Shown in pieces: positions 441-13,868 of a stretch of DNA of 18,141 nt. The notes beneath the pieces are model-generated. The model was not told where the DNA came from. It was given only the letters and a program-made list of their open reading frames with translations, and searched no databases. Numbering within the stretch: the first letter of the stretch is position 1; every line of letters begins with the position of its first letter. The position numbers were made by a program, and so were the translations under genes. The stretch comes from a virus. Lineage: Duplodnaviria; Heunggongvirae; Uroviricota; Caudoviricetes. The stretch lies in IMG/VR virus record IMGVR_UViG_2534682108_000010, positions 1 through 18,141 of that record. The stretch is one strand, 5' to 3'.

Positions 441-540
441 TTATCACAGATGGTAAAAATCAGAACACGATAATAAAAATACCTGATGTATATTCATGCG
501 ACCCGCCCGCCACTCACTGAGGGCTTTTTTTTGCCCATAG

Positions 541-567
541 AAAAGCCCCTCCGGAGAGGGGCTTTTT
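541..567. terminator. Bidirectional intrinsic terminator hairpin
   Basis: gcccctc-cgga-gaggggc hairpin at 545-562 flanked by AAAA on one side and TTTTT on the other. Confidence 0.6.
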
Positions 568-1018
568 ACAGTGGTAGTGTAGACAATTTTGCATGGTGCC
601 GGATGCCTCCCGGTGAATTCTGCAATGACCAGACAGAATCCGCAACTTGCCTATACAATACGCAACCAAACATCTGTCATTATGCCCCGCCTCACAGGGG
701 GATTCACCATGCAAAATCATTTTTAACAAAACAGCATGTTATTCTCCAGTACCCGGCATAATGAAATGTGATGTTCTTAGCATTTTTAAAACCCCGAACT
801 TAGTGGTGATTATTTTTATTAGACACCCCTGTTTCACAGTAACTTTATTTTCTGTTTGGGCCACTCTGGCTCAATACTAAAATTATTAATTATCGACAAA
901 AATATAGTAAATAAATAAACAAGTTCCGAGAAAACCAATAACTATCATTGCTAATGCCAGCATAAATAGTTGTTGTGTGTTTATTTTTACGGTAGTGTAT
1001 TCAAAGTGTTGATTCCTG

Positions 1019-1387
1019 TTATCGCAGGTAATATTCCCGCTCAATAAATGTACCAATCACTTTGTCGTGCATTTCTGTGGATTTCGAATACCCCAGAGTT
1101 TTCCGGTTTAGTCGTTTCAGTCTGTTCCTGAGGTTCAGGTTTTCACGTTCGATGCGTTGCGTATAAAGCTTACCTGTGATGTGTTTTTCATTCGGCAATA
1201 TGTCGTAAGCCCGGAAGTTATCTGTACACCAGAAAGCAACATTAAATCCCGATAACCGCTTCAGTAACTGGCGAAATACCTTTTTACTTCGACGACCAAA
1301 AGCATGGGCAACAATACGTTTGAGACGAGGCTCCCATGCATACCACAGCCAGCGCTGTTGCTTTTTATTGCCGACAAATGACCACAT
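1019..1387 (-). CDS. insB: IS1-family transposase InsB-like ORF (normally expressed as an InsAB' frameshift fusion)
   Basis: Translation ...QRWLWYAWEPRLKRIVAHAFGRR...YTQRIERENLNLRNRLKRLNRKTLGYSKS...HDKVIG aligns by eye with IS1 InsB (QRWLFYAYD...[29 protein letters not shown]...HDKVIG), roughly half identical. Confidence 0.7.
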   Translation of the reverse strand: MWSFVGNKKQQRWLWYAWEPRLKRIVAHAFGRRSKKVFRQLLKRLSGFNVAFWCTDNFRAYDILPNEKHITGKLYTQRIERENLNLRNRLKRLNRKTLGYSKSTEMHDKVIGTFIEREYYLR

Positions 1388-1751: not shown

Positions 1752-1827
1752 TGGAGCGGCCAGCTGGAATCGAACCCGCATCATCAGCCTGGAAGGCCGA
1801 GGTAATAGCCATTATACGATGACCTCA
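1752..1827 (-). tRNA. tRNA-Gly(UCC)-like sequence, probable pseudogene
   Basis: D-arm, anticodon arm (loop CTTCCAG, anticodon UCC) and T-loop closely resemble E. coli glyT, but the 5' acceptor strand (tgaggtc) cannot pair with the 3' strand (tggccgc) and the T-stem has a G-A mismatch. Confidence 0.5.
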
Positions 1828-1904
1828 TGGTGCGCCATACTGGATTCGAACCAGTGACCGATTGCTTAGAAGGCAATTGCTCTGTCAGGCCGAGCTAACA
1901 ACGC
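1828..1904 (-). tRNA. tRNA-Arg (anticodon UCU)
   Basis: Hand-folded cloverleaf: acceptor GCGTTGT/ATGGCGC (with G-U pairs), D-stem GCTC/GAGC, anticodon stem ATTGC/GCAAT with loop CTTCTAA, T-arm ACTGG-TTCGAAT-CCAGT, 3' CCA encoded. Confidence 0.85.
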
Positions 1905-1917
1905 TGAATACCGATAA

Positions 1918-1994
1918 TGGACCGCCATCGGGGACTTGAACCCCGCGCAGCCAGCTTCGAAGGCTGGCGCTCTGTCCCGATGAGCTAATGGCGG
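1918..1994 (-). tRNA. tRNA-Arg (anticodon UCG)
   Basis: Perfect acceptor stem CCGCCAT/ATGGCGG, D-stem GCTC/GAGC, anticodon stem CCAGC/GCTGG with loop CTTCGAA, T-arm CGGGG-TTCAAGT-CCCCG, CCA encoded. Confidence 0.85.
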
Positions 1995-2003
1995 TATCTG
2001 ATA

Positions 2004-2079
2004 TGGTGGCCCTTGCTGGATTTGAACCAGCGACCTGGCGATTATGAGTCGCTCGCTCTCACCACTGAGCTAAAGAGCC
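2004..2079 (-). tRNA. tRNA with CAU anticodon, ileX-like (tRNA-Ile2 / Met-type)
   Basis: Acceptor GGCTCTT/AAGGGCC, D-arm GCTC-AGTGGTGA-GAGC, anticodon loop CTCATAA, T-arm GCTGG-TTCAAAT-CCAGC; from the anticodon arm onward it is nearly identical to my recollection of E. coli ileX. Confidence 0.85.
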
Positions 2080-3990: not shown

Positions 3991-4445
3991 TACGCCTCCT
4001 GCTTGTCACGGAGCTGCTGGAACTCGCAGCTCTGCGGAATAGTCAGATGGCAACCAATATTCATCGCCCAGGCTTCAACCTTACACAGGAAGACATACAT
4101 CTCTCCGGTATCAAGATCGGAGGTATGGCGTAACGACTGGATAGTGGTGATATCACCGGTTACGACATCAACCAGGTCTTTGGTTTCATAACCGAGATAT
4201 GTGTGTTTGAGAGCATCTTTTACCCAAGCTGGAGTGGCGAACGTTTTACCCCTGCTGATGAGGTATTCACTGATTTCGCTGTACCACATGTGGCTGAGTG
4301 CATTCTGGGAAAGACTGCGTTTCTCACGCCACGGTTTAAGCACCATGCGAAAGCATTTGCCTTCCTCCAGATAAGGCTGGATCTGCTGGCCGATAGCGGT
4401 GAAGTTACCACGATGCAATTTGATGCCGTCTTGTGGGAGGTTCAC
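3990..4445 (-). CDS. ybcN: YbcN/NinB-family protein
   Basis: 151-aa ORF with GTG start preceded by GGAGG; the motif [20 protein letters not shown] resembles the NinB RNRSLDQNRKLW region; position and length match DLP12 ybcN. Confidence 0.65.
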
Positions 4446-4478
4446 GCTTCACCTCCGCAGAGGTCAAACGCTGGATGC

Positions 4479-4563
4479 AAAAAATCGCAGGTGCATCTCT
4501 GCATCTGTGAAGGGAGAAGAGAGTTTGGATTGTATGTGCGCATAAACGTCCCCGTTTAGCGCA
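4479..4563. repeat. 85-bp direct repeat, copy A
   Basis: 80 of 85 positions identical to 6413-6497; contains a palindromic hairpin tgcgcataaacg-tccc-cgtttagcgca (10-bp stem with 1-nt bulge, tetraloop). Confidence 0.85.
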
Positions 4564-4639
4564 GAAGTCACCGGAGTTGTTCAAGCTCCAATGGCATGAT
4601 TATGGCTGGTTGATTATTGGAAATCAAATGTGCTGAAAA

Positions 4640-5149
4640 TTAGTCTGCCAAGTCTTCCTCAGTCGCAACTGGGTAATTCCAAATATCAAAAAAAGCTATA
4701 GCCTCCTGCCATTTGCTCCATAAGTTATCAAGTACTTGTGTAGGTTCCGTACTTTTAAAAACAGAATCAGCCGCATCACCGTTATGAACTTCCTCGTACA
4801 GTTCCATTATTAGCAGATTAACAAAGTACTGTTTCAACATTAATGCCTGATTACCTTCTTTCTGCTGGCTATCCTGCTTGATGAGCTCCATCGCCCGTAC
4901 TAGGCACCTGATGATATCCGCTGCATCATTAACGCTCCATTCAGATCCGCGCTTATCTTTAGCTGATGAATTGGCTCTCTCAGCGCAAGCCTTTAAAGAC
5001 TCATAAAGGTAAACTCTATTTTGTAGCTGCAGCGCTTTTTTTGACGTGCACCAACTTGCAAGCGCCGACCCCGCTGCGGCTAATGTGCCAAACGCAGAAA
5101 TGCCTGCTGCTATTGCACTTAAGTCGGCACTGTCAAAGTTCCACATCAT
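4640..5149 (-). CDS. Hypothetical protein with hydrophobic N-terminal segment (putative membrane anchor)
   Basis: 169-aa ORF, ATG with AGGTG RBS; N-terminus LSAIAAGISAFGTLAAAGSALASW is hydrophobic; AT-rich; no family recognised. Confidence 0.5.
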   Translation of the reverse strand: MMWNFDSADLSAIAAGISAFGTLAAAGSALASWCTSKKALQLQNRVYLYESLKACAERANSSAKDKRGSEWSVNDAADIIRCLVRAMELIKQDSQQKEGNQALMLKQYFVNLLIMELYEEVHNGDAADSVFKSTEPTQVLDNLWSKWQEAIAFFDIWNYPVATEEDLAD

Positions 5150-5384
5150 CGTTACACCTTATATAAACACCCCTCAGTAATATCCAATAAGGTATGTGAA
5201 CAATCAATATAATTTATATCCGTATCGGCACATAGCGATTTTAATGCTACTGATAATGGTATCTTTTAGATTATATCGTCCAGTTCCAGTACCCGTATTT
5301 TATGAAATGGACTCGCACATTACCAAAAAAAATGCCAGCACTTCCGTCATCGCAGAATGCTGGCAGTATTTCTAACTAGTGACT

Positions 5385-5993
5385 TTATTGCAACAGATTC
5401 TGACGGAAATATGGTAACACACGACTCCACTTATCATCCTGCCACGGTTGGAATTTTACATGCGCCGTTTCTCTGGCAAGGATTTCTCGCGCCCTGTTGA
5501 GTATCCGAGGATATTCTTGTTCGATTGAAGTGAATCTACCTGCTTCGCGATGCTCTGCGACCTGAAGAAGGGGCGTAACGTTCTGGCAGGCGGTTAACAT
5601 CGTATCACTTGCTCGCCATAACCAGGCGAGTGTGCAAAGTTCGTTATCAGTGAATTGTTTTGTGATTGGGGATTGTTGAACTTCTCGATCGAGAATATCC
5701 AGAACCCAGCGGCGGAATTCTTTGGCCACAGGAGTACGAGCAAACATGGCGATCAAATGGGCTCCGCGAAGGCTAAATACTCGAGACTCCTGCATTCCAC
5801 GAGGGGTGGTCACTTTGACCACCCTTGTCATCATATCTGTGAATTCATCCGAGTGCCGAGAGTAAATGCGCTGAACTGCTTTATCGTCCGCATATTCCAG
5901 TGCTAAACCAACTTCAGTGGCAGTAAGCCAAATTCTGTTATTGTGGCAAATCGGGGTAAACGTCGTTTTGTGGAATGCTAATTGAGTAGTCAT
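5385..5993 (-). CDS. Bro-N domain protein (antirepressor / Roi-like)
   Basis: N-terminal region FHKTTFTPICHNNRIWLTATEVGLALEYADDKAV...RVFSLRGAHLIAMFARTPVAKEFRRWVLDIL matches the Bro-N pattern; ATG with GAGGTG RBS. Confidence 0.7.
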   Translation of the reverse strand: MTTQLAFHKTTFTPICHNNRIWLTATEVGLALEYADDKAVQRIYSRHSDEFTDMMTRVVKVTTPRGMQESRVFSLRGAHLIAMFARTPVAKEFRRWVLDILDREVQQSPITKQFTDNELCTLAWLWRASDTMLTACQNVTPLLQVAEHREAGRFTSIEQEYPRILNRAREILARETAHVKFQPWQDDKWSRVLPYFRQNLLQ

Positions 5994-6149
5994 AGTATCA
6001 CCTCATCAGGTTAACCATCACCACCAACGACGCCAATCGACTGGTGGTGAACTGTGTAAGGTTGGCGTAACCGGCTACTCAAACCCGGCGCTTCCGAAGA
6101 AGCCCTCACACAGCCCACCATAATTTGGGCATAGCCGTGCTTAGCGCAC

Positions 6150-6170
6150 AAAAAAACCGCTTAACGCGGT
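6150..6170 (-). terminator. Possible rho-independent terminator (minus strand)
   Basis: Minus strand: accgc-gttaa-gcggt hairpin followed by TTTTTTT. Confidence 0.45.
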
Positions 6171-6412
6171 ATGCGTTGAGTAGTATCCCGGGACGCCAAT
6201 CCCGTGTGCCGATTTTGCGGCAACGCACAGAATATAGCGCCGGATAAATCATGTCGTCAACCCCAGTAAATGGACACCATGATGATCACAGCCATAGCTG
6301 CTACAACAGTTACAACTACCTCAGGCCAAAACATAACGATTTCCATATCACCTTTAGCCGCCAGACGAATAGAGACTCCCAATTCTGGCTGTCGAAGTAA
6401 AACACCGAATGT

Positions 6413-6497
6413 AAAAAATCGTAGGTGCATTTCTGCATCTGTGAATGGAGATGAGAGTTTGGATTGTGTGTGCGCATAAACGTCCCCGTTTAGCGCA
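6413..6497. repeat. 85-bp direct repeat, copy B
   Basis: 80 of 85 positions identical to 4479-4563, with the same internal hairpin. Confidence 0.85.
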
Positions 6498-6805
6498 ACC
6501 CCACCACCGGGTGTTCAGGCCGACAGTAACTATATTATTCCCTACTGATTTTTGAAAATCAAAGGTCTTTATACGTCACACGAGAGCAAATATTTCCGAA
6601 GAAGAAACCTTTCGCCTTGAAAGGATAAAGAGTTCATTTCATAAATTGAAATATTCAATAAGAATATTGCAAAAAATGAAATTATTTACTAGCGAGTCTA
6701 TCTAACTGATAATTATGAAGATTGTAAGCGGTAGCAATCACCCGCATACACATTGAACAGGATTTAATACAAAACGTCTTAAATTGTCCGTAAGGAATAG
6801 CACGA

Positions 6806-8308
6806 ATGACTCAAACTCCTCTATTACTTGCAATCATATTTTTATTGGTTGTTCTTGTTCTTTATATAGCTGCAATCAAACGCATCAAAAAAATACAATT
6901 AGAATTAAGTGATAGCAATCAAAAAAATGAAGAATACAAATCTCGCTTTGCAGATTATTTTAATGTAGAAGAAGAATGTAAGAAGCTTATTGAGAAAACA
7001 GAGCAAGAATGCTCCATAATAAAAGAAGAATCCCTAAAAGTAAAAGAAAATGCCAATAATGAACTAACAAACACCATTGAAAAAATGGATGGTATCAATA
7101 AACAAATCCAAGAGCTAAGAAGAACTTATAAAGAGAAGAAAGAAATATATGATAAACTAGTAAGGCAAATTTCTATTTATTCAGAAGATGTTGAGCTAGC
7201 CGAACTAGGATTTTACGAACCTCATTTTAATTTTGAAGATTCAGAGCAATTTAAAAACAAAATAAAATCCATCAGGGATGAACAGAAATTAATGCTGCGG
7301 GATAAAACCCACTCTGGCGCAGTATATTGTACAACCCAATGGACTGTTGAAGGCTCTCGAGCAGAGGGTAAAAAAATGACAGACAGAAATATCAGGCTAA
7401 CTACTAGAGCATTTAATAATGAATGTGATGCTGCAATTAGCAATTGCACGTGGAAAAACATCACTAAAATGGAAGAACGCATCACAAAGGCATTTGAGGC
7501 CATAAATAAACTAAACGAGCAAAATCACATATATATAAACACTAAATACCTCAATAAAAAACTTGAGGAATTGTGGCTTACCCATGAATATCGTGAGCAA
7601 AAACAGAAAGAAAAAGAAGAACAGGCAGAAATAAGGGCACAAATGAGAGAGGAGGAGCGTGCACAACGAGAAATAGAAAAGGCCATGCAAGACGCAGAGG
7701 CAGAAGAGCGCCGTTATAAAAAAGCAATTGAAGCTGCAAGAAAGGAAATGGAAAAAGTTACTGGTGACATGAAGCAGCGCCTCGAAAATCGCATTGCCGA
7801 ACTAGAACAGAGTTTGTCGCAGGCTGAATCAAAGCATCAAAGAGCATTATCCATGGCACAACAAACCAAACAAGGTCATGTTTATATTATTTCGAACATA
7901 GGTTCTTTTGGGGAGAATGTTTATAAAATAGGCATGACACGACGTCTTGATCCGCAAGACCGTGTAAATGAGCTCGGTGATGCATCTGTTCCTTTTATTT
8001 TTGATGTACATGCCATGATTTATTCGGAGGACGCTCCATCATTAGAAAAAAAACTACATGATGTCTTCGATAAAAAGAGAGTCAATCTTGTAAATCGTAG
8101 AAAAGAGTTTTTCTATGTTACTCTGGATGAGATCAAAGAAGCTGTTAAAAAACACTCTGATTCAGAAATTGAATTTATTGAGACAGCAGTCGCAAAAGAC
8201 TTTAATGAGTCATTGGCTATTCGTAATCATGAAAATAAAAAAAGTGACAACAGCAACTCATCAATTATACCTGAGCGAAAAATCCCAGAGTTTGCAGATG
8301 CAATTTAA
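6806..8308 (+). CDS. Membrane-anchored coiled-coil protein with C-terminal T5orf172 (GIY-YIG-like) domain, DUF4041-type architecture; candidate accessory/defence gene
   Basis: 500-aa ORF, ATG with AAGGA RBS; N-terminal hydrophobic helix LLLAIIFLLVVLVLYIAAI; long K/E-rich predicted coiled-coil; C-terminal GHVYIISNIGSFGENVYKIGMTRRLDPQDRVNELGDASVPFIFDVHAMIYSEDAPSLEKKLHDVFDKKRVN...EFFYV, recalled as the T5orf172 pattern; visibly AT-rich; opposite strand to all neighbouring genes. Confidence 0.8.
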   Translation: MTQTPLLLAIIFLLVVLVLYIAAIKRIKKIQLELSDSNQKNEEYKSRFADYFNVEEECKKLIEKTEQECSIIKEESLKVKENANNELTNTIEKMDGINKQIQELRRTYKEKKEIYDKLVRQISIYSEDVELAELGFYEPHFNFEDSEQFKNKIKSIRDEQKLMLRDKTHSGAVYCTTQWTVEGSRAEGKKMTDRNIRLTTRAFNNECDAAISNCTWKNITKMEERITKAFEAINKLNEQNHIYINTKYLNKKLEELWLTHEYREQKQKEKEEQAEIRAQMREEERAQREIEKAMQDAEAEERRYKKAIEAARKEMEKVTGDMKQRLENRIAELEQSLSQAESKHQRALSMAQQTKQGHVYIISNIGSFGENVYKIGMTRRLDPQDRVNELGDASVPFIFDVHAMIYSEDAPSLEKKLHDVFDKKRVNLVNRRKEFFYVTLDEIKEAVKKHSDSEIEFIETAVAKDFNESLAIRNHENKKSDNSNSSIIPERKIPEFADAI

Positions 8309-11367: not shown

Positions 11368-11477
11368 TATCAATTCCTATTGGTATTGCAATGAATGAAT
11401 AATAGCAATGCGTATTAATCCAAGCAATAGCAAAACGTGTTTTGACCATCAATACGCAAGCGTATAAATTAAAACTT
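11368..11477. promoter_or_regulatory. Immunity control region (OR-like): divergent promoters and operator repeats
   Basis: Minus-strand promoter TTGCTT-17 bp-TATTAT (-10 at 11399-11404, rc) for the Cro-like gene; plus-strand TTGACC (11442-11447)-15 bp-TATAAA (11463-11468) just upstream of the repressor ATG (11478), so the leader is very short; repeated AATAGCAAT/TATTGC motifs and a 14-bp palindrome ATACGCAAGCGTAT. Confidence 0.6.
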
Positions 11478-12170
11478 ATGAAAAAAGAAACTCTTGCTGA
11501 TCGCTTAAACCTAGCGATGGAACAATCTGGAATGTCTCAAGGCGCTCTTGCAAAGGCGTCTGGCGTAGCTCAACCCACAATCTGGAGACTGACAAGCGGC
11601 AACGCGCGCGGCTCAACAAAAATTGTTGAAATAGCTAATGCATTGGGTGTTCGAACAGAATGGCTCTCATCAGGCATAGGCCCGATGAGAAATGACGGTC
11701 AACAATCAGGGAAGCCTGCTGTCAGCCATTCCAAATACTTCAAAATTGACGTTCTTGATATAGAAGTCAGTGCCGGGCCGGGTGTAATCAACCGTGAGTT
11801 TGTAGAAGTTCTACGCTCGGTTGAGTACTCGTTTGACGATGCTCGTCACATGTTCGATGGCAGGAAGGCGGAAAATATCCGCATCATTAACGTGCGTGGT
11901 GACAGCATGTCAGGAACGATCGAACCAGGTGATCTGCTGTTCGTTGATATCACGGTTAAATCTTTCGACGGTGATGGTATCTATGCGTTTCTGTACGACG
12001 ACACAGCCCATGTAAAGCGTCTGCAAATGATGAAGGATAAGCTGCTGGTTATCTCTGATAACAAGAGCTACTCACCGTGGGACCCGATCGAGAAAGACGA
12101 GATGAACCGGGTGTTCATCTTCGGTAAGGTTATTGGGAGCATGCCGCAGACGTATAGGAAGCATGGGTAG
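11478..12170 (+). CDS. CI-like repressor (HTH plus S24 LexA-like autopeptidase domain)
   Basis: From ATG 11478: MKKETLADRLNLAMEQSGMSQGALAKASGVAQPTIWRL... (HTH); C-terminal VRGDSMSGTIEPGD and HVKRL recalled as the S24 Ser/Lys pattern; the ORF-track start at 11442 is a TTG. Confidence 0.85.
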   Translation: MKKETLADRLNLAMEQSGMSQGALAKASGVAQPTIWRLTSGNARGSTKIVEIANALGVRTEWLSSGIGPMRNDGQQSGKPAVSHSKYFKIDVLDIEVSAGPGVINREFVEVLRSVEYSFDDARHMFDGRKAENIRIINVRGDSMSGTIEPGDLLFVDITVKSFDGDGIYAFLYDDTAHVKRLQMMKDKLLVISDNKSYSPWDPIEKDEMNRVFIFGKVIGSMPQTYRKHG

Positions 12171-12216: not shown

Positions 12217-13065
12217 ATGTCTTCGATTTGGGGAAAAAAGTTGATGACGAAAGAACAAGAGTCAAACACTGATGAAGTGAAACCAGAGCAAGGAAGTTTG
12301 TTTGAATTAGAATTTCATGAATATACACCTTCAAGCTTAGGCACAGCACACCTTTCTGGTTTCGCTATTGCCACTGATGAAATGGAATATGCAGTTAAAA
12401 GCATGCGCTCCACCCCACCTTTTCCTGTACAAAACCCAACTCAAGTACCGGCAGCGGAATGGTTTTGCACAAATTTAGCTGAAAAATGCGGCATCGCTAC
12501 ACCTGTGTGCAAAATTCTCAAGTGTATTGCTAATGGGGAGTATGTTTTTGGCTCTCGCATAGAGTTTTCAGCCTGGAAATCTGGTCTCAATAGTCCTCAA
12601 TGGATAAATTTGCTCTCAAATGCTTCTGAATCCTTAAAGAAGCAACTCTGGGCAATTTATGCATTTGATCAGTTTGTATATAACATTGACAGACACCTCA
12701 ACAACTACTTATACATGGAAAACACCCGAGGCAATGTTATAGTTAAAACATTCGATTTTAGTCTAAGCTCTTTTGTTATAGGCTGGCCACGAAATACCCC
12801 TCATATACTACCAACAGACTCCAGTACAACAACAAACTGGACGATTGCTAAACAATTCATTGGCGACACTGATGATCTGAGAAAGTGCGCATTATCTGTC
12901 CTTGACAAAATTGAAAAAATTGGAGTTGAGGCTATATCTGATATACTTAACTCTATGCCTGAAGCATGGATGCCACCAATGCATAAGGAGTATTTTTTGA
13001 AGTGGTGGGACAGCGAGGAGCGAATCGATAGGCTAAATGCCATAAGACTGGAGATAACATCTTGA
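12217..13065 (+). CDS. Hypothetical protein with kinase-like catalytic-loop motif (HipA / PI3-PI4-kinase-like); candidate defence gene A
   Basis: 282-aa ORF 46 bp downstream of the repressor, AAGAGG RBS; motif NIDRHLNN followed 21 residues later by FDFS resembles the N-x-D-x-H-x-x-N ... D catalytic pattern of HipA-type kinases; AT-rich. Confidence 0.75.
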   Translation: MSSIWGKKLMTKEQESNTDEVKPEQGSLFELEFHEYTPSSLGTAHLSGFAIATDEMEYAVKSMRSTPPFPVQNPTQVPAAEWFCTNLAEKCGIATPVCKILKCIANGEYVFGSRIEFSAWKSGLNSPQWINLLSNASESLKKQLWAIYAFDQFVYNIDRHLNNYLYMENTRGNVIVKTFDFSLSSFVIGWPRNTPHILPTDSSTTTNWTIAKQFIGDTDDLRKCALSVLDKIEKIGVEAISDILNSMPEAWMPPMHKEYFLKWWDSEERIDRLNAIRLEITS

Positions 13066-13868
13066 AAACTTTCAAATACAGCTTAATCAGAGTTACACCG
13101 AACTTAGAGAAAGGTGAAACGATTAACGTTGGTTTGATCGTTTACCATGACTCTGACATAGACGTACGTATGCTCAATTCAGTTTCAAAACTTAAAGCGA
13201 TTGACAAAGATCTTACCTTAGATTACTTAGAGGATCTTTCGACCTCGCTTTTTGATTTGTCACAAAAAATCAACAATGCTGAACTTCTTCCTTGTCTTTT
13301 TAAGGGAGCATTATCGTTATCGTCATTTGGCATGTTCACTCTTCAAGCCAACGAAGATTACGAAGCTAAAGTTACTGATCTAATGAATCGGTTAGTAAAC
13401 CCACAAAAACAGCCACATAAACAGTTGAAAAAAAAGGTTTTTTCTGAATTAAAATCCACCTTTATACAACATGGAATTTTCAGTAAGTATTTTGAAGATC
13501 TTTCCCAACATAAAATCGTAGCTAATTATCCAATTAGTAATGAAGAAGGGTTAGTTGCAGATTTTTTGTTAAAAAATGGCAAATACCATCTTACAGAAAC
13601 ATTAGATTTTCGTTCTGAAAATATAAAAAAACAAATGGGTGAAGCTGCGATAAGTGTTTTAACAATTACTAAAGCCTACGAATTATACAATTCAAATATT
13701 GATTCATTTGTAATTTTTGCCGCTGAAACGACAGCACAAGAAAAGTCAGCAAAACAGCAGCTAAATCTACTGGAAAAACACGCTGATAATCTTATCAACG
13801 CATATAGCAAAGAAGACATGCGTTCATATTACGAAAAGATGCTGAATGCTGCCTCTATGTTACAGTAG
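13062..13868 (+). CDS. Hypothetical protein, partner of the kinase-like gene; candidate defence gene B
   Basis: 268-aa ORF whose TTG start overlaps the upstream stop (TTGA), GGAG RBS 8 nt upstream; N-terminus MKTFKYSLIRVTPNLEKGETINVGLIVYHD; followed by terminator 13896-13922; AT-rich. Confidence 0.75.
   Translation: MKTFKYSLIRVTPNLEKGETINVGLIVYHDSDIDVRMLNSVSKLKAIDKDLTLDYLEDLSTSLFDLSQKINNAELLPCLFKGALSLSSFGMFTLQANEDYEAKVTDLMNRLVNPQKQPHKQLKKKVFSELKSTFIQHGIFSKYFEDLSQHKIVANYPISNEEGLVADFLLKNGKYHLTETLDFRSENIKKQMGEAAISVLTITKAYELYNSNIDSFVIFAAETTAQEKSAKQQLNLLEKHADNLINAYSKEDMRSYYEKMLNAASMLQ

What the first reader, a model, noticed from the sequence alone, without database searches (positions are those of the whole stretch)
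4640..5993. Accessory pair inside the repeat-bracketed cassette: Bro-N domain protein and AT-rich membrane-anchored unknown
Bro-N domain proteins are frequent variable cargo in phages (antirepressor-like or regulatory roles). The downstream 169-aa protein has a strong RBS, a hydrophobic N-terminal segment and no recognisable family, and sits in an AT-rich stretch with a 235-bp AT-rich spacer upstream that could hold its own promoter. Together they may form a small accessory module, though nothing demonstrates functional linkage.
Basis: partly seen in the sequence, partly recalled or inferred. Interest (0 to 1): 0.45.

Follow-up and report, generated by a model that had tools for sequence, protein, structure and literature searches.

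The report
Antirepressor module beside an unrelated membrane gene

Summary
The window is a DLP12-like lambdoid prophage of E. coli. It is identical in this region to the infectious phage PhiR26_1.

**What was confirmed**
- Both ORFs are real.
- The bracketing 104-nt repeat is real (93/104 identical).

**The 202-aa gene**
- It carries Bro-N and P22AR_C domains.
- This matches Gifsy-1 isrK-orf45-anrP and P1 c4-icd-ant, so it is a known kind.

**The 169-aa gene**
- It is a true coding gene (dN/dS about 0.1) from a tiny prophage-only family, phrog_1779.
- It has no Pfam, NCBIfam, PADLOC or PDB match and no significant fold match.
- All 30 aligned members have an Ala/Gly/Ser-rich N-terminal hydrophobic segment, followed by an all-helical domain predicted to be cytoplasmic. 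Most also have an acidic C-terminal tail.
- A promoter-like block, TTGMTW-17-GATATTA, is conserved upstream.
- In other genera the gene sits directly before ninB-position genes with no antirepressor upstream. The pairing with ant is therefore recent E. coli linkage, not a module.

Its function is unknown. My best guess is a superinfection-exclusion-like protein acting at the inner membrane, held with low confidence.

The parts
6231..6260 (-). Promoter-like site (TTGACG-18-TATATT, 10 of 12) directly upstream of isrK; the presumed promoter of the antirepressor unit, equivalent to PisrK
   Evidence: Position relative to the isrK match. Function inferred by analogy with Gifsy-1 PisrK (PMC4825925).
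6150..6222 (-). isrK-type RNA (RF01394). It carries the a1/b1 target hairpins of C4 (b1 UUGGCG at 6199-6194) and ends in a Rho-independent terminator (6170-6156 plus a U-tract).
   Evidence: Rfam 58.7 bits against a gathering score of 50. An overlapping c4-a1b1 match scores 39.6 bits, below its gathering score of 46.7. Terminator.
6040..6125 (-). C4 antisense RNA (RF01695). Its CGCCAA at 6067-6062 is complementary to UUGGCG in b1 and b2.
   Evidence: Rfam 74.8 bits against a gathering score of 45, full-length match to model positions 1-87. Complementarity read from the sequence.
6011..6121 (-). Short ORF (36 aa from the ATG; 46 aa from an upstream TTG at 6151) that overlaps the C4 RNA; positional equivalent of Gifsy-1 orf45. 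Its stop codon lies 17 nt before the ant start codon.
   Evidence: The same MVGCV... ORF is fused to the downstream gene in Salmonella phage SW-37. Role inferred from PMC4825925.
6019..6049 (-). Hairpin CACCACCA...UGGUGGUG that presents GAUUGGCG (b2-like C4 target, 6036-6031) in its loop, just upstream of the ant Shine-Dalgarno sequence (GAGGTGA, 6004-5998)
   Evidence: Fold of 5985-6050: -26.8 kcal/mol, z -3.4. Coordinates.
5385..5993 (-). Antirepressor-like gene, 202 aa, with Bro-N and P22AR_C domains
   Evidence: Pfam. phrog_245 'anti-repressor Ant', E 2.8e-56. RefSeq names it 'P22AR C-terminal domain-containing protein'.
5325..5365 (-). Intrinsic terminator of the antirepressor unit: GCCAGCA...UGCUGGC stem followed by U8
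   Evidence: -18.9 kcal/mol, z -3.06, 0 of 200 shuffles fold as well. The stem is intact in all three E. coli context classes.
5179..5207 (-). Conserved promoter-like block of the 169-aa gene: -35 TTGATT (5207-5202), 17-nt spacer, -10 GATATT (5184-5179)
   Evidence: Conserved with fixed spacing in 10 of 11 diverse loci. Found once per locus in 55 of 72 loci, always just upstream of the gene and nowhere else. Coordinates. Promoter activity is inferred, not shown.
4640..5149 (-). 169-aa gene (phrog_1779): N-terminal hydrophobic segment, all-helical domain, acidic C-terminal tail TEEDLAD. The true start is probably the second ATG at 5146.
   Evidence: The first ATG is ATA in several alleles.
4460..4563 (-). 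Repeat copy 1: a conserved junction sequence that contains most of a ylcH-like 33-aa ORF (4442-4543) running into ybcN
   Evidence: The sequence downstream of the 169-aa gene is conserved at 70-80% nucleotide identity even in distant loci.
6394..6497 (-). Repeat copy 2 (93/104 identical to copy 1). It forms the 5' part of a 53-aa ORF (6316-6477) and marks the upstream edge of the cassette.

Best explanation
The interval holds two independent transcription units of a lambdoid prophage. They are neighbours through recent recombination, not through shared function.

**Unit 1 (6260 to 5325, minus strand): an immI-type antirepressor module.**
- Shown: its parts and their order. A sigma-70-like promoter precedes an isrK-type RNA. 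That RNA carries the a1/b1 decoy targets and ends in a terminator. Next come a C4 antisense RNA overlapped by a short ORF, a hairpin that displays a second C4 target just before the ribosome-binding site, and the Bro-N/P22AR_C gene. A strong terminator closes the unit.
- Inferred from P1 c4-icd-ant and Gifsy-1 isrK-orf45-anrP: the terminator in isrK is probably leaky, as it is in Gifsy-1. The RNAs keep translation of the antirepressor off in the lysogen. When this control is lifted, the protein binds and inactivates a CI-type repressor. That could be the prophage's own HTH + S24 repressor at 11442-12170 or that of a co-resident prophage. The result favours lytic development.

**Unit 2 (about 5207 to 4640): a single-gene unit.**
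- Shown: a conserved promoter-like block (TTGATT-17-GATATT) and a good Shine-Dalgarno sequence precede a 168/169-aa protein. The protein has an N-terminal hydrophobic helix. Flanking charges predict a short N-terminus outside and an all-helical, acidic domain in the cytoplasm. There is no conserved catalytic motif.
- Inferred, with low confidence: the protein is tethered to the inner membrane and acts by protein-protein contact rather than catalysis. The most likely role is a prophage-expressed superinfection-exclusion or abortive-infection factor.
For: **Prophage identity and map**
-.

**Unit 1**
- Rfam C4 scores 74.8 bits (gathering score 45) and isrK 58.7 bits (gathering score 50), immediately upstream of the gene.
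- A promoter-like site and the isrK terminator are present.
- UUGGCG in b1 and b2 is complementary to CGCCAA in C4.
- The target hairpin is stable, z -3.4.
- The protein has Bro-N and P22AR_C domains and matches PHROG antirepressor families.
- The terminator after the gene is strong, z -3.1.
- Experimental precedent exists for the Gifsy-1 isrK-orf45-anrP locus (PMC4825925) and for P1 c4 (PMC12197685).
- A CI-like repressor is present in the window.

**Unit 2**
- dN/dS is about 0.1.
- The family is small: 14 clusters at 90% identity and 34 representatives at 50% identity among 1.8 billion proteins.
- All 30 aligned members have a hydrophobic N-terminal segment. The N-side is net negative (0 in four members). 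The C-side is net positive in 27 of the 30.
- The AlphaFold2 model has pLDDT 81.7 and is all-helical.
- The promoter-like block is conserved in sequence and spacing.

**Independence of the two units**
-.
Against: **Unit 1**
- No transcript, protein or phenotype data exist for this locus. Promoter and terminator activities are predictions.
- The short ORF ends 17 nt before the ant start codon rather than overlapping it as in Gifsy-1. No isrJ RNA follows the gene. No a2 target was found.
- Bro-N is a DNA-binding fold, so a Roi/Rha-like regulator is not excluded.

**Unit 2**
- The hydrophobic segment of this particular copy is borderline for a transmembrane helix (Kyte-Doolittle 1.59).
- The gene is co-oriented with the early operon everywhere. 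In distant relatives it overlaps the upstream early gene and has no promoter of its own. This fits an early lytic function as well as a lysogen-expressed one.
- The hairpin downstream of the gene is not a convincing terminator.
- No PADLOC model matches it, and no fold match supports any function.
Confidence: 0.6

Rival explanations
1. The 169-aa protein is an early lytic-cycle accessory protein. It would be transcribed with the delayed-early operon through N/Q-type antitermination and would help replication, recombination or host takeover at the membrane. It would not be a lysogen-expressed protective gene.
For: - The gene is co-oriented with the early operon in every locus examined.
- In Pantoea prophages its start overlaps the stop of a HolE/theta-like early gene. 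A second distant context also has a theta-like gene just upstream.
- The close clade always sits at the junction between the replication module and ninB.
- GC content is not deviant, 44.5%.
Against: - A promoter-like block with fixed spacing is conserved for the close clade, which a purely read-through gene would not need.
- Non-coding gaps lie on both sides of the gene in an otherwise tightly packed region.
- The gene is retained intact in decayed prophages such as ML35, which have lost replication and lysis functions.
Confidence: 0.3
2. One reading: the Bro-N protein and the 169-aa protein form a two-gene accessory module that functions together.
For: - In E. coli, 46 of the 47 loci whose 169-aa gene is at least 95% identical also carry at least the P22AR_C-coding 3' half of the upstream gene plus the spacer.
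- The 1.9-kb block is nearly identical in 112 complete genomes.
Against: - The linkage is at 94-100% nucleotide identity, which means recent common descent.
- In 17 loci the upstream gene is only a fragment lacking Bro-N, leader and promoter, yet the 169-aa gene is intact.
- All 14 loci with 50-79% identical homologues lack any Bro-N or P22AR_C gene.
- A strong terminator and a separate promoter-like block lie between the genes.
- In the three other phages examined, the isrK-C4 leader is not followed by this gene.
Confidence: 0.07
3. The 202-aa Bro-N/P22AR_C protein is not an antirepressor. It would be a DNA-binding regulator of the Roi/Rha type that affects lytic growth directly.
For: - Bro-N is described as a DNA-binding domain (my background knowledge of the BRO family).
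- PhiR26_1 and PhiR5_1 annotate the gene as 'Rha protein'.
- Phage 2851 carries roi next to its ant genes.
Against: - The gene sits behind a complete C4/isrK leader. In the characterised cases, P1 and Gifsy-1, this leader controls antirepressors.
- P22AR_C is the C-terminal domain of the P22 antirepressor.
- The best annotated PHROG matches are antirepressor families.
- There is no Phage_pRha Pfam hit.
Confidence: 0.15
4. The 169-aa protein is a membrane-active toxin, holin-like or SAR-type protein, or a HEPN-type RNase tethered to the membrane.
For: - The hydrophobic segment is rich in Ala/Gly/Ser/Thr (47-74% across the family), as in SAR domains and oligomerising helices.
Against: - The fold hits are not significant: no match with E <= 0.001, and TM-scores of 0.2-0.3.
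- There is no Rx4-6H motif and no conserved histidine. The conserved positions are mostly hydrophobic.
- The gene is far from the lysis cassette.
- It is carried uninterrupted in 180 complete genomes.
Confidence: 0.05

Closest known systems
Gifsy-1 isrK-orf45-anrP-isrJ locus of Salmonella (Hershko-Shalev et al. 2016, PMC4825925)
   Same: - An isrK-family RNA with its own promoter and a terminator lies upstream.
- A short ORF follows whose nucleotide sequence, not its peptide, is what is conserved. Here it overlaps the C4 RNA.
- An antirepressor-like gene comes next.
   Different: - The locus here lies in the nin region upstream of Q, not downstream of antQ.
- The short ORF stops 17 nt before the ant start codon instead of overlapping it.
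- No isrJ RNA follows.
- Identity of the protein to AnrP was not measured.
Phage P1/P7 immI operon (c4 RNA - icd - ant)
   Same: - There is a full-length C4 RNA match (74.8 bits).
- An a1/b1-like element lies upstream and a b2-like target lies just before the ribosome-binding site.
- The sequences are complementary: CGCCAA in C4 against UUGGCG in the targets.
   Different: - There is no icd homologue and no a2 target was found.
- The c4-a1b1 model scores below its gathering threshold (39.6 against 46.7).
- The controlled protein is a Bro-N/P22AR_C protein, and the host element is a lambdoid prophage.
Phage P22 antirepressor Ant (immI region)
   Same: - It shares the P22AR_C C-terminal domain (E 1.7e-17).
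- It acts as a second immunity-region function in a lambdoid phage whose main repressor is of the S24 type.
   Different: - The N-terminal half is Bro-N, not P22_AR_N.
- Regulation is by C4/isrK-type RNAs, not by Mnt/Arc/sar.
Lambdoid 'morons' and membrane superinfection-exclusion proteins (lambda SieB, HK97 gp15, P22 SieA)
   Same: - It is a small membrane-anchored protein encoded in a variable spot of a temperate phage.
- It has its own promoter-like element and flanking non-coding gaps.
- It lies next to a proven defence gene (PD-lambda-1/SNIPE).
   Different: - It shows no sequence or fold similarity to any of them in the libraries searched.
- Expression in lysogens and any exclusion phenotype are untested.
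- The downstream terminator is doubtful.

Membership tests
C4 antisense RNA (Rfam RF01695) / P1 immI-type control | RNA matching the C4 covariance model above the gathering score | tested here: met
   74.8 bits against a gathering score of 45; model positions 1-87 of 87; window 6040-6125 minus strand.
C4 antisense RNA (Rfam RF01695) / P1 immI-type control | Target sequences complementary to C4, both upstream (a1/b1) and at the ribosome-binding site of the controlled gene (a2/b2) | tested here: inconclusive
   - b1 (6199-6194) and b2 (6036-6031) UUGGCG are complementary to C4 CGCCAA (6067-6062).
- The c4-a1b1 model scores 39.6 bits, below its gathering score of 46.7.
- No clear a2 target was found by eye.
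C4 antisense RNA (Rfam RF01695) / P1 immI-type control | icd gene between c4 and ant, with translational coupling | tested here: not met
   Only a 36/46-aa ORF that overlaps C4 is present, and it ends 17 nt before the ant start codon. No similarity test against Icd was possible.
Gifsy-1 isrK-orf45-anrP-isrJ locus | isrK RNA above the Rfam gathering score, with a Rho-independent terminator | tested here: met
   58.7 bits against a gathering score of 50, window 6150-6222. Terminator-like site at 6170-6156 followed by a T-run.
Gifsy-1 isrK-orf45-anrP-isrJ locus | isrJ RNA downstream of the antirepressor gene | tested here: not met
   No isrJ match at E <= 1 in 4400-6850. In related loci isrJ is found after the Q gene instead.
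Gifsy-1 isrK-orf45-anrP-isrJ locus | [quoted passage not shown] | not testable with these tools
   This needs reporter fusions and northern blots as in PMC4825925.
Phage antirepressor (Ant) proteins | Antirepressor domain architecture | tested here: met
   Bro-N, E 4.4e-10, plus P22AR_C, E 1.7e-17, both above their Pfam cut-offs. phrog_245 'anti-repressor Ant', E 2.8e-56.
Phage antirepressor (Ant) proteins | Binds and inactivates a CI-type repressor | not testable with these tools
   A candidate target is present: the HTH_3 + Peptidase_S24 protein at 11442-12170. No binding data exist.
HEPN-domain toxins (considered for the 169-aa protein) | Rx4-6H catalytic motif in a four-helix bundle | tested here: not met
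   - No conserved His is present. R58 is conserved only in the close clade and is not followed by His.
Known anti-phage defence proteins (PADLOC-DB v2) | Match to a defence-system model | tested here: not met
   No family matched either protein at E <= 1. The neighbouring gene 6806-8308 matches PD-Lambda-1 at E 1.9e-198.
Phage 'moron' (autonomous accessory transcription unit) | Own promoter upstream of the gene | tested here: inconclusive
   A TTGMTW-17-GATATTA block is conserved in sequence and spacing, occurs once per locus and only there. Promoter activity was not measured, and the block matches only 8 of 12 consensus positions.
Phage 'moron' (autonomous accessory transcription unit) | Terminator downstream, and base composition unlike the neighbouring genes | tested here: inconclusive
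   - The downstream hairpin at 4505-4474 gives -12.8 kcal/mol and z -2.5, but it uses the U-tract within its stem.
- Gene GC is 44.5% against a window mean of 45.7%. The flanking ybcN is 50% and ant is 47.5%.
Single-pass inner-membrane protein | Hydrophobic helix of about 19 or more residues with the positive-inside charge pattern | tested here: inconclusive
   - A hydrophobic segment is present in all 30 family members, with a mean Kyte-Doolittle value of 1.89.
- The N-side is net negative (0 in four members). The C-side is net positive in 27 of the 30.
- This particular copy scores 1.59, which is borderline. No dedicated transmembrane predictor was available.

The most novel reading that the evidence does not exclude
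The 169-aa family (phrog_1779) is a previously unrecognised single-gene protective function of enterobacterial temperate phages. It would be expressed in lysogens from its own conserved promoter, which may be operator-controlled. Tethered to the inner membrane, it would use its non-enzymatic helical domain and acidic tail to bind a host or phage protein, blocking genome entry or early development of superinfecting phages. It would then be a second defence gene in the same variable slot that carries PD-lambda-1/SNIPE.
Probability: 0.2. Interest if true: 0.5.

Novelty: new member of a known kind. Interest (0 to 1): 0.3.

Why it matters
- **Annotation.** The 'P22AR C-terminal domain-containing protein', also annotated as 'Rha protein', is found in well over a hundred complete E. 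coli genomes and in the infectious phage PhiR26_1. It can now be annotated as the output of an RNA-controlled (isrK + C4) antirepressor switch. The same type of leader is found in 209 phage records, including many Stx-converting phages, so it bears on how such prophages are induced.
- **A defined target for experiments.** The 169-aa protein is a small, phage-restricted, membrane-anchored family with no known function. It sits next to a proven defence gene in the variable slot between the replication and nin modules. Its own conserved regulatory block makes it a cheap candidate for a plating or toxicity screen.
- **Scope.** Neither point changes current understanding of phage biology.

Tried and rejected
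**Family and structure searches for the 169-aa protein, all negative**
- Pfam, NCBIfam and PADLOC gave nothing. Pfam on all 30 family members gave only scattered chance hits.
- A PDB profile search returned only a 33-residue designed transmembrane peptide at E 5.8.
- Foldseek against BFVD and the PDB gave nothing at E <= 0.001.
- The afdb50 fold library was unavailable.

**Searches for more homologues**
- The GTDB species-representative scan gave only one locus, in Scandinavium.
- A scan of viral contigs with a distant member found nothing.

**Other checks**
- An isrJ-like RNA in the spacer, as in Gifsy-1: no hit.
- HEPN idea: rejected, no Rx4-6H motif.
- Functional link to PD-lambda-1: rejected. 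Only 13 of the 61 loci that carry a 169-aa homologue (L001-L061) also carry PD-lambda-1.
- Functional link to NinB: judged positional. The downstream gene is NinB, YbcN-like or DUF1367 in different loci.
- Inverted repeat around the -10 block: only weak support, 72% of cells paired against 63% in shuffles. Left unexplained.
- Literature: no paper mentions WP_000990010, WP_000990013, PhiR26_1 or phrog_1779. The Brenes and Laub 2025 prophage-defence paper is not in the searchable library.
Full report
**1. Where we are**

The 1.9 kb around the finding is 99.9% identical to a chromosomal prophage in 112 complete E. coli genomes. RefSeq annotation of one of them gives this order: ren, P and O replication genes; a DUF4041 gene; a 'P22AR C-terminal domain-containing protein'; a hypothetical protein; a 33-aa hypothetical; then ybcN, ninE, ybcO, rusA, ylcG and quuD. 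This is a DLP12-like lambdoid prophage.

The same block is 100% identical in Escherichia phage PhiR26_1, whose listed host is MG1655. The element is therefore part of a live phage. In phage orientation both genes of the finding point the same way as the cro-cII-O-P-ren...Q early-right operon. The DUF4041 gene points the other way.

**2. The observation**

Both ORFs are at the stated coordinates on the minus strand.
- The 202-aa protein has Bro-N (residues 17-100) and also P22AR_C (residues 110-180). It matches PHROG antirepressor families.
- The 169-aa protein has no Pfam, NCBIfam or PADLOC family. It is a full-length member of phrog_1779, function unknown.
- The bracketing repeat is real: 4460-4563 and 6394-6497, 93/104 identical. 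Each copy contains the start of a ylcH-like small ORF.
- 'AT-rich' holds for the spacer (36.6% GC) but not for the gene (44.5% against 45.7% for the window).

**3.

An Rfam scan at gathering thresholds finds two RNAs immediately upstream of the gene and on its strand:
- a C4 antisense RNA at 6040-6125 (74.8 bits, gathering score 45, full length);
- an isrK RNA at 6150-6222 (58.7 bits, gathering score 50).

The isrK stretch also matches the 'a1,b1 targets of C4' model, at 39.6 bits, which is below that model's threshold.

Other features of the leader:
- A 10-of-12 sigma-70-like site (TTGACG-18-TATATT, 6260-6231) sits just upstream of isrK, and isrK ends in a terminator-like hairpin with a T-run.
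- C4 contains CGCCAA (6067-6062). This is complementary to UUGGCG in the isrK hairpin (6199-6194). It is also complementary to UUGGCG in the loop of a very stable hairpin (6049-6019) that lies just before the Shine-Dalgarno sequence of the Bro-N gene.
- A short ORF (6121-6011; 36 aa from its ATG) overlaps C4 and stops 17 nt before the Bro-N start codon.
- Directly after the Bro-N stop codon comes a strong intrinsic terminator: GCCAGCA...UGCUGGC plus U8, at 5365-5325, -18.9 kcal/mol, z -3.1, with 0 of 200 shuffles folding as well.

This is the anatomy of the P1/P7 immI operon, in which c4 RNA blocks ant expression (PMC12197685). It is even closer to the Gifsy-1 isrK-orf45-anrP locus. There, the isrK promoter drives a read-through mRNA that is translationally silent until short IsrK acts on it. 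Translation of the antirepressor-like AnrP then depends on the short upstream ORF. AnrP induces the prophage (PMC4825925).

The leader is widespread. It occurs in 209 phage records, including many Stx1- and Stx2-converting phages. It precedes antA in the nin region of phage 2851, a 194-aa protein in a phiV10-like phage, and a fused ORF in Salmonella phage SW-37. None of these proteins is detectably similar to the Bro-N protein of the window. The leader is therefore a portable control cassette placed in front of different antirepressor-type genes.

The window also encodes a plausible target, an HTH_3 + Peptidase_S24 repressor at 11442-12170.

Shown: the RNA family matches, the complementarity, the domain architecture and the terminator. 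Inferred: promoter activity, RNA control of translation and antirepressor activity.

**4. The 169-aa gene is a real gene from a very small family**

*Family size.* A search of 5.8 billion clusters found 14 relatives. A profile search of 1.84 billion representatives found 34, nearly all 150-180 aa long.

*Selection.* Against homologues of 74% and 69% identity, dN/dS is 0.10 and 0.09, with synonymous sites near saturation. This indicates strong purifying selection. Recent E. coli alleles differ mostly by non-synonymous changes, for example 7-8 non-synonymous against 1-2 synonymous. The counts are small, and I leave this unexplained. Several alleles have ATA in place of the first ATG, so the second ATG (5146) is the likely start.

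*Shared features.*
- All 30 aligned members have an N-terminal hydrophobic segment. The mean Kyte-Doolittle value is 1.89, and this copy scores 1.59. The segment is 47-74% Ala/Gly/Ser/Thr.
- The N-side is net negative (0 in four members). The C-side is net positive in 27 of the 30 members. This predicts an N-out/C-in single-pass anchor.
- The rest is an acidic helical domain, net charge -9 over residues 40-169 of this copy.
- Most members end in a conserved tail, T-D/E-E-D-L-x-D.

*Structure.* AlphaFold2 with the 30-sequence alignment gives pLDDT 81.7 and an all-helical bundle. No fold search gave a significant match. The weak HEPN-toxin hits are not backed by an Rx4-6H motif or by any conserved histidine. 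The conserved columns are mostly hydrophobic, plus Q43, N60, W71 and W147. I read this as a non-enzymatic, membrane-tethered interaction domain. That is inference.

**5. Are the two genes a module? No**

I compared 61 loci that carry a homologue of the 169-aa gene.

Among the 47 loci with a gene at least 95% identical (E. coli):
- 25 have the full isrK-C4-ant unit, and 13 of these also have PD-lambda-1;
- 17 have only a 99-107-aa P22AR_C fragment, placed behind emrE-ybcK, with no Bro-N domain, leader or promoter;
- 4 have a different, 249-aa Bro-N protein whose N-terminal half is only 49% identical, and in the one such locus scanned (PhiR5_1) no C4 or isrK reached the Rfam gathering thresholds;
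- 1 has a truncated 169-aa gene.

The spacer and the 3' half of ant travel with the 169-aa gene at 94-100% nucleotide identity. That is the signature of recent descent with recombination breakpoints inside ant.

All 14 loci whose homologue is 50-79% identical lack any Bro-N or P22AR_C gene. In the loci whose upstream gene I examined, it is a DUF551 protein (five loci) or an unknown protein. Wherever the downstream DNA is held, the gene always lies directly before a gene in the ninB position (NinB, YbcN-like or DUF1367). It has an upstream gap of about 80-110 nt and a downstream gap of at least about 120 nt (about 120-200 nt in most loci).

More distant members (18-29% identity) lie in early-left or early-right prophage operons. 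In two of the four contexts examined they follow a HolE/theta-like gene, and in one of these they overlap it.

**6. A conserved regulatory block in front of the 169-aa gene**

I aligned the roughly 120 nt upstream of the start codon from 11 diverse loci. Two conserved islands appear at a fixed distance: TTG(C/A)TT, then 17 nt, then GATATT. In the window these are at 5207-5202 and 5184-5179.

The pattern TTGMTW-N17-GATATTA occurs exactly once in each of 55 of the 72 loci held, always 30-58 nt before the start codon and nowhere else. It was not listed by the consensus scanner. By my count it matches 8 of 12 positions, below the scanner's threshold of 9, but it keeps the critical TTG, A-11 and T-7.

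The -10 island (TGGATATTAC) is more invariant than a plain promoter needs. It is flanked by a partly conserved inverted repeat: 72% of cells are paired, against 63% in shuffles and 35-53% in slid controls. This could be an operator or an RNA hairpin.

With the terminator at 5365-5325, this makes the 169-aa gene its own unit. The hairpin downstream of the gene is not a convincing terminator.

**7. Most likely mechanism, and rivals**

*Unit 1.* It is an immI-type, RNA-controlled antirepressor switch. I am confident about its anatomy and moderately confident about its function.

*Unit 2.* I commit, with low confidence, to a prophage-expressed protein tethered to the inner membrane that acts by protein contact. 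The most plausible role is superinfection exclusion or abortive infection. The reasons are:
- it has its own conserved promoter-like block;
- it has a membrane anchor;
- it lacks catalytic residues;
- it survives intact in decayed prophages such as ML35;
- it occupies a variable slot that also carries the proven defence gene PD-lambda-1/SNIPE.

The main rival is an early lytic accessory function. This is supported by universal co-orientation with the early operons and by the promoter-less, overlapping arrangement in distant relatives. A two-gene module, a Roi/Rha-type role for the Bro-N protein, and a toxin, holin or HEPN role are less likely, for the reasons given under the rival explanations.

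**8. Novelty and verdict**

The Bro-N half is a new member of a known kind. The useful correction is the RNA leader.

The 169-aa half is an uncharacterised family. Nothing in the evidence shows an unusual mechanism, but it is a well-defined and cheap experimental target.

Interest is 0.3. The finding is mostly ordinary.

Noticed in passing
window 6806-8308 (+): The 500-aa DUF4041 gene is transcribed divergently from the antirepressor unit. It matches PADLOC PD-Lambda-1 at E 1.9e-198. PD-lambda-1 was renamed SNIPE in 2026: a membrane-bound nuclease that cuts phage DNA during injection (PMC13190303). It is very AT-rich (35% GC) and is present in only 13 of the 25 loci that carry the full antirepressor unit.
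   Followed up: partly
window 6257-6346 (-): A 29-aa, very hydrophobic ORF (MEIVMFWPEVVVTVVAAMAVIIMVSIYWG) with a Shine-Dalgarno-like AAAGGTGAT ends at the -35 of the isrK promoter. It is conserved (96-100%) in the 24 loci that carry this version of the antirepressor unit and is absent from all the other loci held, including the Stx-phage version. It resembles small membrane toxins of type I toxin-antitoxin systems, but nothing was tested.
   Followed up: partly
window 4442-4543 (-) and 6316-6477 (-): The 104-nt repeat is a duplicated 5' part of a ylcH-like small ORF. The downstream copy runs into ybcN. The upstream copy is fused to unrelated sequence, giving a 53-aa ORF that PhiR26_1 annotates as a gene. 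The junction sequence is conserved at 70-80% nucleotide identity even in loci whose 169-aa protein is only 63-74% identical. It is probably the recombination joint that moves cassettes in and out of this slot.
   Followed up: partly
window 5170-5215 (-): The -10 block TGGATATTAC upstream of the 169-aa gene is almost invariant across diverged loci. It is flanked by a partly conserved inverted repeat (AATACCCTG...CAGGGTATT in some loci). In the E. coli version the left arm can instead pair with the Shine-Dalgarno region. It could be an operator or an RNA switch, and this is unresolved.
   Followed up: partly
window 1752-2079 (-) and 533-739 (-): Four tRNA genes (Met-CAT, Arg-TCG, Arg-TCT, Gly-TCC) lie downstream of the Q antiterminator gene, as in Stx-type phages. 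A full-length STnc100 sRNA match (141.6 bits) lies further on. Here the window differs from the best-matching RefSeq prophage, which has a porin gene at this place.
   Followed up: no
window 12217-13868 (+): Two genes lie directly downstream of the CI-like repressor, in the position of lambda rexAB. One is a HipA-like kinase (HipA_2, E 1e-6) and the other a DUF3037 protein. They could be another lysogen-expressed accessory or defence pair.
   Followed up: no
window 1019-1387 (-): An IS1 transposase fragment (DDE_Tnp_IS1, E 2.6e-45) lies in the late-region side of the window, which indicates an IS insertion in this prophage copy.
   Followed up: no
loci L004, L005, L057 (after the Q gene): In related prophages, isrJ RNA (RF01393) matches lie immediately downstream of the Q antiterminator gene, not next to an antirepressor. 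The isrJ family may therefore correspond to the leader of the late transcript.
   Followed up: no
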